Assembly (NCBI GenBank): GCA_964016885.1
Contig: OZ024746.1
Span: forward strand, 37,634,001-37,698,000
Direction: 5' to 3'
Source: Eledone cirrhosa
Taxonomy: Eukaryota
DNA: 64,000 nucleotides
Part shown: positions 1,947 through 56,700 of the stretch, in pieces
Layout of the letters: each line of letters opens with the position of its first letter
Position numbering within the stretch: the stretch's first letter is position 1
Translations under genes and position numbers: made by a program
Notes under the pieces: generated by a model
What the model saw: the letters and a program-made list of their open reading frames with translations, nothing else
Databases searched by the model: none
Told to the model about the DNA's origin: nothing

Positions 1947-1998
1947 ATATAGTCAAAGCTCTTTCGTCACATTCTGTGATCTCCTCAGTGAGCGATAT
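1947..1998 (-). ncRNA. Minimal type I hammerhead ribozyme-like motif
   Basis: Minus strand: TCA-CTGAGGA-GATCACAGAATGTGAC-GAAA-GAGC-TT-TGA. Core intact, stem II G(A)TCAC/GTGAC, short stems I and III. Confidence 0.55.
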
Positions 1999-2068
1999 CT
2001 TATTTTGTGTCTCTCATTGTTGTGCCCTACACCATCTTGCATTACGATATATCTATATATATATATAT

Positions 2069-2183
2069 ATAGGAAAATGTATGACCCCGACGGCAGAGCT
2101 CAAGTGGTTTCGACGATATTTCTGGACTGAAATAGCCGTCGAAACGGCTTGAGCTCTGCCGTCGGGGTCATACTTTTTCCTAT
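2069..2183. repeat. ~115-bp fold-back palindrome carrying the 3' half of a hammerhead
   Basis: Arms of ~50 bp (aggaaaatgtatgaccccgacggcagagctcaag... / ...cttgagctctgccgtcggggtcatactttttcct). The right arm has GAAA-CGGC..GCCG-TC. Confidence 0.85.
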
Positions 2184-2341
2184 TACCCACTATACTACCC
2201 TAAGTATTGAGTACTCTGTTGCGTTATCGTCCATCTGGTTCCTTACCACAATTCCTTCGTTATATATATATGTGTGTGTGTGTGTGTGTGTGTGTGTGTG
2301 TGTGTGTGTATAATACCATTTATTAAGGCTTAATGGCAAGT

Positions 2342-2390
2342 CTTGTTACTCTGGTGTTTCACTTATGTAACCATTAGATCATCAGAATAG
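2342..2390 (-). ncRNA. Degenerate hammerhead ribozyme motif
   Basis: Minus strand: CTGATGA-TCTAATGGTTACATAAGT-GAAA-CACCAGAG-TA. Core and stem II present, stem I mismatched. Confidence 0.45.
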
Positions 2391-53300: not shown

Positions 53301-56082
53301 TTTCCCAGTTCTAGCAGATTGCTGCGAAACACATCCAAATTCATCAGGAATTATTCAACGCCTATTATTTATAAGAGCAGTGAGAGCGATCATTTCTCTT
53401 ATGCACATCAGCACCCGATTGACCGGCGTGAGACTTCTAATGCAATGCAAGATATATCAGACCACTTTCAACTGCATGGTGAAATGTACAGAAAGAGTAC
53501 ATACAATTAGTTGGATATTCATATAAATCGGAATATTTTACTCCTGATCAGCATCTCAGAGCCATTATTATCTCAATTCTTTTTATAGGCTCTATAATAT
53601 ACTCAACCAGAAAATGCATAATACCTACCGAATATTTTCCTATCAGATTCACTATTGTGCATTGTATGTCCCATTGCAACTGGAACTCGCGACATTGGAC
53701 GGCAATCACTAATCTCTTTTAAGAGCACCCGACTTAAGCAGAAGTTTGCAACCTATGTGTTAGCCTCAAAAGAACATTTGAGTGATCTAATCTGATAAAT
53801 ACCTAATTTTATATCGCGACTTCCTTGCTAAACAAGCTGCAAGTCTAGATACGTGTCAAATACTCGCATGGTTATATCCATATATGTGATTCTCTATGTG
53901 GCATTTTGTTCAAATTTAAGCGTTATTTTGGGAGAAATGTATATTATAATAGGTTTAATTTGGATTCTATTGTACGAGCCTCCGGTCTTGTCCTGAGTAT
54001 GGGTTGACGTTACACAGTTTGAATGAGGGTGGACCTTACAAATTTTGAATTTGATGTGCGAATATATTCATAGGAAAATAATGACAACTGTATGAATGGG
54101 ATATGTAGACATTTCATTGATCACAACGAATAGTGTTTTCCAGTCCACCAGTTCTCCAACATTTGGCAGATCTACAATATATCTAGTGTGATATAGGCAC
54201 AGATTTTTGTATGAAAACCAAATTGGTTTTCCTGGTGTAATTACTTGAGTGCCAACACCAGATTAATGTAAATGCATATATATATATATATATATATATA
54301 TATATATATATATATATATATATATATAAAACGATGCACTTTACTCTGGTGACCTATTCACGTTTGGGAATGGTACGTCAGAATAGCGGTTACATCTTAG
54401 CCTCTACATCGATCAGTCGTATGCTATTTAAAATAGTGCTTCCAAGTCCGTATATTACCGTGGATATCTAATCAGAATTATATGCGAATCAGTTTTACAT
54501 GGTCCTAGATTGGTACTTTATTTCGCCCAATTGAAATGAGAATATCCCACGTAATGAAGGGGCTGTGTGTATCACTAGCTATTCTCCTAGTGAAGACTTT
54601 CTTCATATTGTGTACGGGGCACAGTTGAGATAGCCAATACCCTATATTCCCTCGCATACACTTTTCTTCTATTTGTTATGAATATTATTATCAATATATT
54701 AAAAGAATACTTTTTTCTTAGCAATTCCATGGAGTGTTTCTGGTTTACCTCATTCTCGCTTTTATGATGTCGATCCAGCATGGCAGTGCATTTCCTGCTC
54801 ATTTTCTTATTCTTATTGTTATTATATCTGTTACTCTTGCCCCTGAACCTGGCGATGGCTGTTCAAATGGTAGTGGAAACGGTGTCACTTCGGTCTCGTG
54901 CGAGTCACAAATATAATAGTCATCTACCTTTTAGTGGATATCGTGGTATTACTTGTATTGGTGGAGCTTTGTAACCTGATAATGTTTTTTCTTCTCTATT
55001 TTTCTTCTAAAATTCCAAAGTCATATTTCATAACAAACTTCACACATTTAAGGCAAACGACCGGGAAATAACCATTTTTTTATATTTCTAGTCACCTCAT
55101 AAAAATCATAAATGACAACATTGGAGCACTGACAGGGACATGTGTTGTAACATTATGCTAAAATCAACCAGAGCAAAAATCAGTGTGAAAATGTGTAGCA
55201 AGGTTTGAATATTGTTTGGATATATACATTGCATATTCAACTCGTTTGCCTATTTAAATTCTTACCTATTCTGGGATATCTAAAGCAAATATAAAAACAA
55301 ATTCATGGCATCTTAACTTGCTTATTGTAAATCGACCTGCTGTCTCATTGTCATAGAAAATTAAGTCAAGATGTTTGTATAGCATTGATATAAAGGCCAA
55401 AGAACTGCATTCTAGAAAGTAGCAAACGTGAAAGAGAATATGCTTGAGGCGTGTTTATTAAATTGCACCATGTTACTGAATTGCCGTCAATCTCCATCAG
55501 GGTTTTTCTCTAGCATCATCACAATATTGTGGGCGTTGGAAAAGTTGAAAATCCAAATTACTATGACACACACAGGAGCATAAATGCAGAGGTGAAAGAA
55601 AAATATCCTCGGCGGGAAATCATGACCTTGATACTAAACTAAATTGTGCCAACTATCTATTTCTAAATATACAGCGTCGAACAAACAAAGCACTATAATA
55701 TATTACATAGAATATATAATCCCCATTTCGCGTGAATTATTTATTCATGATGATAAGAAAACTAACCAATATATTGATGAAAATGAAAAGAAGGCTGAAT
55801 GTCTCATTTGAGACATTCAAAATGGTTATTATAAGAAACTTACACTTCTGTTTGATTAAAATTATATTTGTATTCATTCGCTTTAAATGACATTTACTAT
55901 TCACTGTAACTTCGATAATCTAAATGTCTCCCTTGAGAAATATGATTAACGGGAGAGTTGTTTGAATAGACTAGTCCAAAAAAGTAATGTATATATATAG
56001 ATCGTAGATAAAAACAATAAGCTTCAATAAATAATGATCGCAGGAAACATACAGACATTTTATATAAAACAGAAACAAAAAT

Positions 56083-56300
56083 ACATATATATATATATAT
56101 ATATATATATATATATATATATATATATATATGTATATGTATATATATTTATATATGTATATGTATATATATTTATATATGTATATGTATATATATTTAT
56201 ATATGTATATATATCTATATATGTATATATATGTATATATATGTATATATATTTATATGTATATATATATATATATATATATATATATATATATATTTAT
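56083..56300. repeat. (TA)n-derived tract
   Basis: Read directly. Confidence 0.95.
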
Positions 56301-56309
56301 TTATTAACG

Positions 56310-56700
56310 GTTGCTCAGCCGTTAATTTTCATAAGGAACGTATATACTTTCGAACGTTCAACTATCTGGCAGATGGGTAAACGGTGCTGATGATAGCTAA
56401 CAAGCTTGAAACTAGTACATCTTTCCTGTGTCAGTGTTGAACAAAAAGGTGACGTGGTTGCCTTAACACCGTATGGCATAAATTCAGGCTGTTCAGTTTG
56501 TTTACAAACGAACAAAGCGGCGTTATAATAAGCGTCCGCTAAACTGATGCGTGGATATATGTATGTATGTGTATATATATATATACATATATATGCATGC
56601 TACTGTACGTCTGTATACATATATGTATGTACGTATACATACATACTTACATTTAAGTAAGTGCCATACTAAGAGTGAGAAATGAAATTTCGTTTTCATT
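56310..56700 (+). mobile_element. Circularly permuted copy of the 8560-9345 hammerhead cassette
   Basis: 56310-56527 matches 9172-9345 plus the terminus seen inverted at 8560-8590; 56595-56700 matches ~9012-9110. Confidence 0.8.
56383..56421 (+). ncRNA. Minimal type I hammerhead ribozyme
   Basis: GGTG-CTGATGA-TAGCTAACAAGCTT-GAAA-CTAG-TA-CATC; predicted cut after 56417. Confidence 0.8.

What the first reader, a model, noticed from the sequence alone, without database searches (positions are those of the whole stretch)
1947..56421. Many apparently unrelated hammerhead-ribozyme cassettes beside (TA)n microsatellites
Seen: CUGANGA-stemII-GAAA-stemIII-NUH motifs at 1947(-), 2342(-), 9241(+), 9667(-), 42954(+), 43374(-), 43503(+), ~43800(-), 46251(+) and 56383(+). 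Decayed or half copies occur at 2141, 5685, ~8655, ~9450, ~42740 and ~45720. Their stems and flanks fall into at least six groups with no obvious shared sequence. Nearly all are in short non-coding cassettes next to (TA)n or (CA)n tracts, clustered at 1.9-2.4, 8.5-9.8 and 42-46.5 kb. Established: Penelope-like elements and non-LTR retrozymes carry type I hammerheads, often minimal with a palindromic stem III. Inference: a diverse, microsatellite-targeting retrozyme/Penelope population uses TA tracts as landing sites and nests there. No autonomous Penelope ORF is visible in the window.
Basis: partly seen in the sequence, partly recalled or inferred. Interest (0 to 1): 0.75.

Follow-up and report, generated by a model that had tools for sequence, protein, structure and literature searches.

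The report
Hammerhead tails of octopus Penelope retroelements
The motifs are real hammerhead-shaped sequences, likely self-cutting as RNA, at the tail ends of about ten families of Penelope-type jumping genes and their gene-less parasites that sit in TA repeats all over this octopus-like genome: a known kind of element in unusually large numbers, whose mirror-image insertions suggest the copying enzyme likely starts two DNA copies on one RNA.

Summary
Observation confirmed: all 10 motifs and 6 decayed or half copies belong to ten multi-copy hammerhead families (4 strict matches against 0.03-0.05 in shuffles). The reading is partly right. Six families are 3' ends of protein-coding Penelope-like elements (Neptune- and Hydra-type; B and G firmly, E well, H, I, K on one or two loci), and the window holds a 68-codon Neptune endonuclease remnant (45831-46034). 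Three are ORF-less tandem units (retrozymes, 422-1920 nt); one is seen only as short two-armed inserts. The window is ordinary for its genome: 69 motifs in 600 kb sampled elsewhere, about 260,000-335,000 genome-wide. Head-to-head inserts have one short and one tailed end in 66 of 67 cases, and either arm can be the longer (22:22), which favours twin priming from two fixed RNA sites, for ORF-less families too. Cleavage and expression are untested. Hammerheads in Penelope ends, (TA)n targeting and an octopus Hydra element are published; this scan noted the same system and density on other DNA of this genome.

The parts
1882..2046 (-). Family E: 3' end of an older Neptune-type element; hammerhead 1953-1991, predicted cut after 1956; ends on (TA)n at 1716-1878
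   Evidence: 2323 candidates; Neptune endonuclease remnant upstream in L157, 63%/51% identity
2073..2265 (.). Family H: two-armed short insert; each arm holds only the 3' half of the hammerhead (GAAA at 2141+ and 2111-); one short and one tailed end
   Evidence: (Hydra-type ORF about 1.2 kb upstream in L189)
2312..2530 (-). Family F: old (about 70% identity) short two-armed insert, hammerhead 2342-2389 with damaged stems in this copy; no ORF found
   Evidence: (128 candidates)
5545..5735 (.). Family I: old relative of family B; two arms with half hammerheads (GAAA at 5685+ and 5661-)
   Evidence: 162 candidates; Hydra-type ORF upstream in L235
8545..8947 (-). Family A left arm; decayed hammerhead 8656-8691
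8987..9345 (+). Family A right arm: ORF-less tandem unit of 422-431 nt (retrozyme); intact hammerhead 9241-9283, palindromic stem III ACUAGU, predicted cut after 9277
   Evidence: (3205 candidates)
9411..9600 (.). Family K: two-armed short insert; hammerhead fold at 9433-9480(-) with family-wide core CAGAAGA (U4 to A)
   Evidence: Hydra-type ORF about 1 kb upstream in L173; 16 of 22 copies CAGAAGA, none CTGANGA
9636..9877 (-). Family B: 3' UTR of a Hydra-type element reaching back to about the stop codon; hammerhead 9667-9704
42600..43242 (.). Family D: ORF-less unit of about 510 nt; left arm 42600-42813(-) lacks the CUGAUGA half; right arm carries an intact hammerhead 42957-43039(+) with 7-bp stems I and III, predicted cut after 43032
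   Evidence: 2552 candidates; z = -4.2
43280..43571 (.). Family B two-armed insert: tailed arm 43280-43440(-), hammerhead 43374-43411; short arm 43470-43571(+), hammerhead 43503-43540 with a copy-specific core change; folds into one hairpin if read through
43737..45757 (-). Family C: one full 1920-nt ORF-less unit preceded by a 5'-truncated repeat (45666-45757); hammerhead 43786-43843 with long stem II and palindromic stem III AUGAUCAU, predicted cut after 43790
   Evidence: (2324 candidates)
45829..46493 (+). Family G: 5'-truncated Neptune-type element: last 68 codons of the GIY-YIG endonuclease (45831-46034), 3' UTR with hammerhead 46251-46293, end on (TA)n at 46494
   Evidence: (35,173 candidates)
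56309..56700 (+). Family A, diverged subfamily copy (84% to the 9.2-kb copy); hammerhead 56383-56421, predicted cut after 56417

Best explanation
The cassettes are the hammerhead-bearing 3' ends of Penelope-like retroelements (Neptune and Hydra types) and of ORF-less tandem retrozymes that are likely copied by the same enzymes, and they end on (TA)n tracts, which the elements' endonuclease likely cuts. Shown: the ends, the ORF links, the tandem units, the two fixed end points per family, the head-to-head arms. Inferred mechanism: the RT-endonuclease protein binds a more-than-unit-length (or circular) RNA, cuts both strands of a TA tract, and primes two cDNAs on that RNA, one from each broken end and each at its own fixed start site 59-145 nt apart; the two cDNAs stop at variable points and are joined, giving a mirror-image insert with one short and one tailed end. 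Each new insert is flanked by TA repeats, so later inserts nest beside it. The hammerheads likely cut the tandem transcript into units, mostly as dimers (palindromic stem III), but in some families cleavage may be weak or dispensable.
For: ORF links: family B core lies about 155-190 nt behind the Hydra-type ORF in 20 of 30 loci found by protein search (most of the rest carry point changes in the core); family G core lies about 210-280 nt behind the Neptune-type ORF (output partly cut; ORF end upstream in 25 of 38 loci of the E/G cluster); L145 is a whole repeat-ORF-repeat copy with a hammerhead at both ends. Clade motifs read directly from the open frames match the definitions in PMC8557442. 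No PLE ORF upstream of A, C, D, F by tblastn or profile search (0 of 23, 0 of 12, 0 of 8, 0 of 8 loci; one unrelated neighbour for A); A, C, D occur as tandems. Ends fall at two fixed sites and are followed by TA runs (B 69 of 86, G 46 of 59, D 21 of 29, C 17 of 26, A 39 of 101 with many internal tandem continuations). 66 of 67 head-to-head pairs in seven families have one short and one tailed end; the longer arm is the short-ended one in 22, the tailed one in 22, equal in 22. In vitro a Poseidon protein cuts and extends both strands, starts at two internal RNA sites that define the tail, and is predicted to be a dimer (PMC11167929). Stems covary while the core stays fixed.
Against: No cleavage, expression or circular-RNA data for these families. 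The in vitro work is on another clade (Poseidon) and saw no difference in start site between strands. Links of H, I and K to ORFs rest on one or two loci each. Which protein moves A, C, D and F is not shown. Alignments A1 and A2 were mostly picked by a scanner that demands pairing, so pairing percentages are inflated; in A1 only 2 pairs change on both sides (213 of 500 shuffles reach that). Several window copies do not fold into the hammerhead as their minimum-energy structure. L117 and L120 look like one duplicated locus and were counted twice for B and H (64 of 65 without them); 16 of the 22 'equal' arms are family H, one of them (L142) an artefact of the reference used.
Confidence: 0.85

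Rival explanations
1. Same elements, but the mirror-image arms arise by fold-back: one cDNA is primed at one site, turns back on itself, and the second end is trimmed at a fixed point by the endonuclease.
For: PMC8557442 ascribes the one-sided tail to endonuclease-mediated resolution of the intermediate. Very short inserts (family H) have nearly equal arms.
Against: Fold-back from one fixed start makes the primed arm always the longer; observed 22 short-ended longer, 22 tailed longer. It survives only if priming can start at either site and resolution always picks the other.
Confidence: 0.25
2. All cassettes are an independent population of non-coding retrozymes or viroid-like circles, unrelated to coding elements.
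For: A, C and D are ORF-less tandems; one sampled region holds at least 15 motif-bearing A units.
Against: Six of ten families continue upstream into PLE coding sequence, and the ORF-less ones share the same two-end footprint.
Confidence: 0.08
3. The hammerheads are largely non-catalytic relics or protein-binding signals; cleavage plays no part in spread.
For: Family K amplified with core CAGAAGA (16 of 22 copies, none canonical); the young family G has only 2 adjacent stem I pairs; H and I carry A at position 8 with U or C at position 3. Ribozyme mutants did not affect insertion in vitro (PMC11167929), and 8 of 9 Xenopus retrozyme dimers did not cleave (preprint). Two-armed copies bury the motif in a hairpin (-167 kcal/mol).
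Against: The core is fixed across 27 sequence clusters found by core-based scanning (circular for the core, not for the differing stems), stems covary between subfamilies, and cores found by anchoring on flanking sequence are canonical in most copies (A 54 of 62, B 50 of 66, G 34 of 34, E 22 of 24).
Confidence: 0.2

Closest known systems
Hydra-clade PLEs, including Hydra-1_Obim of Octopus bimaculoides (Craig et al. 2021, PMC8557442; passages, section 11 and supplement hits seen)
   Same: Short (<3 kb; 2495-nt unit in L149), C-terminal endonuclease without CCHH, CxCx5C linker, hammerhead, (TA)n target; Hydra-1_Obim is listed as 2507 bp, (TA)n, with a hammerhead, and its protein reads alike to the family B protein by eye.
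   Different: Here at least four Hydra-type families end in the window, with different hammerheads, two with non-canonical cores; 56,778 first-look candidates for one endonuclease query (not a copy number).
Neptune-clade PLEs (definitions in PMC8557442; minimal hammerheads in PMC4209133, parts 1-2 of 4 read)
   Same: RT followed by Cx4Cx2C linker and GIY-YIG endonuclease with internal cysteines; extra base before G10.1, 6-7 bp stem II, tiny near-palindromic stem III, short stem I; repeat-ORF-repeat structure.
   Different: Very young and abundant here (97% protein identity among the best 150, 35,173 candidates); tail about 60 nt rather than 30-40.
Metazoan non-LTR retrozymes (Cervera and de la Pena 2020, PMC7229834, passages; Li, Clavereau and Pollet 2026 preprint 10.64898/2026.07.22.740005, parts 1-3 of 5)
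   Same: ORF-less tandem units with one type I hammerhead; U-U mismatch at the base of stem II as in axolotl HHR_Amex2; PLE relationship proposed.
   Different: Units up to 1920 nt (preprint range 51-972); two-armed inserts with the PLE tail footprint; density about 85-110 per Mb against 120,000 in 28.2 Gb (about 4 per Mb) in axolotl, by different descriptors.
Poseidon element PAc of Anolis (Frangieh et al. 2024, PMC11167929, parts 1-2 of 4)
   Same: Two RT start sites defining the tail, both strands cut and extended, AT-rich target, tail inside the ORF start (as in L145).
   Different: That study did not show the coupling of one start site to each end of one insert; it is inferred here from genome copies.

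Membership tests
Type I hammerhead ribozyme | CUGANGA - stem II - GAAA - stem III - UH inside stem I | tested here: met
   5 of 10 window copies pass the relaxed descriptor; families A-G pass in other copies; K, H, I have variant cores
Type I hammerhead ribozyme | Compensatory changes in stems with fixed core | tested here: met
   A1 (family A): covariation score 0.151, 1 of 500 shuffles, weak on pair count; A2 (a family outside the window): 9 of 14 pairs change on both sides, 0 of 500; rows mostly scanner-picked
Type I hammerhead ribozyme | Site-specific self-cleavage | not testable with these tools
   needs in vitro assay; no RNA run available
Penelope-like elements (EN+) | Single ORF with RT and C-terminal GIY-YIG endonuclease | tested here: met
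   1217-aa and 585/591-aa frames with RT motifs; best named homologue an Octopus vulgaris RT-domain protein, 67%. Pfam copy held gave no curated hit, so assignment rests on motifs and homologues
Penelope-like elements (EN+) | Pseudo-LTRs, 5' truncation, inverted 5' copy, one-sided tail | tested here: met
Hydra clade | CxCx5C linker, no CCHH, CxxC and CxH around the catalytic E and N, <3 kb, (TA)n | tested here: met
   L148 frame: CSCRKPEAC, no cysteines between the GIY- and YIG-like motifs, CVLC and CPH; unit 2495 nt
Hydra clade | RWK motif near the N-terminus; placement in an RT tree | not tested
   the open frames fetched lack the N-terminus; no tree with reference clades was built
Neptune clade | Cx2-5CxxC linker, CCHH in the endonuclease, DKG-like motif | tested here: met
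   L145-L147 frames: CTNRKCIIC, two cysteines between the GIY- and YIG-like motifs, TDKSG in L146 and L147. Nematis shares linker and CCHH and was not excluded by a tree
Non-LTR retrozymes (A, C, D) | ORF-less tandem unit with one type I hammerhead | tested here: met
Non-LTR retrozymes (A, C, D) | Expressed as monomeric linear and circular RNA | not testable with these tools
   needs RNA data from this animal

The most novel reading that the evidence does not exclude
This genome carries some 260,000-335,000 intact-looking hammerheads from dozens of families, about twenty times the density of the axolotl record, and its copies show a strict insertion rule: a Penelope protein dimer starts two cDNAs on one RNA, one at each of two fixed sites, one from each end of a cut TA tract, and does so equally for its own RNA and for ORF-less retrozymes of up to 1.9 kb, even in families whose ribozyme core is altered.
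Probability: 0.55. Interest if true: 0.68.

Novelty: new member of a known kind. Interest (0 to 1): 0.44.

Why it matters
The kind of element is known, and this window is one ordinary sample of it. Two things add value. First, how Penelope-like elements make their inverted, tailed insertions is listed as open (PMC8557442), and the 66-of-67 end rule with symmetric arm lengths gives a testable model, with near-intact young ORFs and many natural RNA substrates in one genome. Second, hundreds of thousands of hammerheads, including high-copy core variants, are missed by Rfam here and are not mentioned in the recent Octopus vulgaris repeat annotation (0 hits for hammerhead, ribozyme, retrozyme in its main text); they offer natural variants for ribozyme work and would form long double-stranded RNA when read through.

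Tried and rejected
a too-strict first descriptor found nothing (it disallowed the U-U or extra base at the foot of stem II). Rfam at E<=1: no hammerhead family, only spurious miRNA hits. The repeat finder was swamped by microsatellites; self-BLAST used instead. Pfam gave no hit for the PLE frames and PDB only a weak RT hit, E 0.067. No RNA holder listed; three contig runs of unknown kind were laid and show only that the families are present and that the 43510 core change is not shared by most contigs; no inference on expression. A local hotspot was rejected: the window has fewer motifs than the sample mean. Type III topology for family F was considered and rejected: the apparent upstream partner strand is the inverted arm. 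PLE ORF in the 1920-nt C unit: none by tblastn or profiles, longest sense frames 98-127 codons. The distance-to-TA test (62 of 69 within 200 nt against 27% background) is inflated because family A has internal TA runs; the end-mapping is the fairer test. A scan for TTGANAA cores in the controls gave mostly repeats and was not used. Not-in-print statements rest on searches of an open-access library only; supplements of the bioRxiv preprint were not seen and may list relevant species.

Full report
Observation. A strict type I descriptor finds 4 in the window against a mean of 0.03-0.05 in 300 dinucleotide shuffles of each of two kinds, none reaching 4; a relaxed one finds 5. The rest have substitutions in this copy. 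Self-comparison shows that most sit in head-to-head inverted pairs. Rfam finds none of them.

Host and families. The window lies in a 3.0-Gb assembly; the best named homologue of one element protein is from Octopus vulgaris at 67%, so the host is octopus-like. Genome searches with window pieces gave multi-copy families: A 3205 first-look candidates, B 1098, C 2324, D 2552, F 128, E 2323, I 162, J 2372 (these are not copy numbers). H and K were read from loci already held. Ten families carry a hammerhead fold or half of one (A-I, K).

Links to coding elements. Flanks of family D and B loci contained Penelope-like open frames. Window 45831-46034 is the last 68 codons of a Neptune-type endonuclease, 87% identical to L060, followed by the 46251 hammerhead and a TA tract. 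Protein searches returned near-intact copies; L145 is repeat-ORF-repeat with a 1217-aa frame and a hammerhead in both repeats, and L148/L149 hold 585/591-aa Hydra-type frames with the family B hammerhead behind the stop. The B core follows the ORF in 20 of 30 loci. Family E follows a second Neptune ORF. K, H and I follow other Hydra-type ORFs in L173, L189 and L235, one or two loci each. Motifs match the published clade definitions (PMC8557442); Pfam gave no curated hit and no tree was built. A (422-431 nt), D (about 510 nt) and C (1920 nt) are tandem units with no PLE ORF by tblastn or profile search. F was seen only as short old two-armed inserts.

Ribozyme anatomy. Most families have a short palindromic or near-palindromic stem III, which by established work implies dimeric cleavage (PMC4209133). 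A, B, C and F have a U-U pair at the foot of stem II, known from axolotl (PMC7229834); E and G have the extra base before G10.1 known from PLE hammerheads. D has stable stems I and III and folds well as a monomer (z = -4.2); several other window copies do not fold into the hammerhead as their lowest-energy form. Stems covary, with the caveat that rows were mostly chosen by a pairing-based scanner and that A2 is a family outside the window. Anchoring on flanking sequence, cores are canonical in A 54 of 62, B 50 of 66, C 25 of 31, D 14 of 19, E 22 of 24, G 34 of 34, but K reads CAGAAGA in 16 of 22 and never CUGANGA; H and I have A at position 8 with U or C at position 3, the U3-A8 form being known from Schistosoma. 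Cleavage was not tested.

Genome load. Sixty 10-kb regions at round coordinates (not a random draw) held 69 motifs; ten shuffles gave 0-2. Thirty of 60 regions had at least one. A stratified estimate is 335,000 (bootstrap 207,000-483,000), or 259,000 if two tandem arrays are counted once; variant cores and half copies are not included. The window (5 per 64 kb) is below the mean (7.4). All loci held gave 27 sequence clusters, 15 with two or more members. The axolotl figure is 120,000 in 28.2 Gb, by another descriptor.

Insertion footprint. Each family ends at two fixed sites about 59-145 nt apart, usually followed by a TA run. Among head-to-head pairs with both ends on TA, 66 of 67 have one short and one tailed end (A 8 of 9, B 18, C 5, D 6, G 6, H 17, K 6; 64 of 65 if a duplicated locus is counted once). 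The longer arm is the short-ended one in 22, the tailed one in 22, and the arms are equal in 22. A one-sided tail and inverted 5' copies are published PLE features; two start sites, cutting and extension of both strands and a predicted dimer were shown in vitro for a Poseidon element. The symmetry of arm lengths argues against fold-back from one primed end and for two cDNAs started on one RNA; this step is inferred. The ORF-less families show the same footprint, which is the evidence that PLE proteins move them.

Comparison and novelty. Hammerheads in PLE ends, (TA)n targeting by Hydra elements, an Octopus bimaculoides Hydra element with a hammerhead and the retrozyme-PLE link are in print. 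I found no paper in nine searches of the open library that reports this load in an octopus; the giant squid paper lists 235 Rfam hammerheads and the O. vulgaris repeat annotation does not mention them. Earlier notes of this scan describe the same system, two-armed footprint and a similar density on other DNA of this genome; they are not independent evidence, and the counts above are my own. Verdict: real, new members of a known kind, ordinary for this genome; interest 0.44.

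Noticed in passing
window 10.4-15.3 kb, 20.4-23.0 kb, 27.9-33.6 kb, 33.9-39.7 kb (all minus strand): Four related, degraded LINEs in one orientation with endonuclease, RT and zf-RVT domains and Asn/Thr-rich first ORFs; several start beside (AAT)n. L1/Tx1-like by domain order (label recalled); the cluster may reflect a target preference.
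   Followed up: partly
window 42071-42586: Family J: two-armed insert of a roughly 490-nt tandem family (2372 candidates) that ends on (TA)n and keeps CTGATGA, but I found no matching stem II-GAAA fold; a hammerhead-less or unusual member.
   Followed up: partly
window 9433-9480(-); L173, L188, L202, L228: Family K is abundant (21 BLAST hits in 600 kb) yet carries U4-to-A in its core in every intact copy seen.
   Followed up: partly
L225 (G000:C28:110000001-110010000) and L189:8630-9700: A tandem array of the 422-nt family A unit across the whole 10-kb region, and a head-to-head array of a 311-nt hammerhead unit.
   Followed up: no
control loci L173, L175, L187, L203, L208, L212, L215, L217, L224, L228: The commonest hammerhead cluster in the control sample (TTTTAT-CTGATGA...GAAA-palindrome-TA-ATAAAA; 19 distinct control motifs) is absent from the window and has strongly covarying stems; no own ORF link found.
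   Followed up: partly
window 3129-3329, 39881-40032, 47997-48068, 60336-60556, 7349-7718: Short interspersed repeats; the 3129-3329 family gave 125 hits in 600 kb. SINE-like by appearance (label not tested).
   Followed up: no
window 40.9-41.7 kb, 59.1-59.5 kb, 17.1-17.4 kb; 62.1-64.0 kb; 43628-43746: Fragments of other retroelements: a repeated C-terminal nuclease-like piece, and RT-coding fragments of two further LINE families.
   Followed up: no
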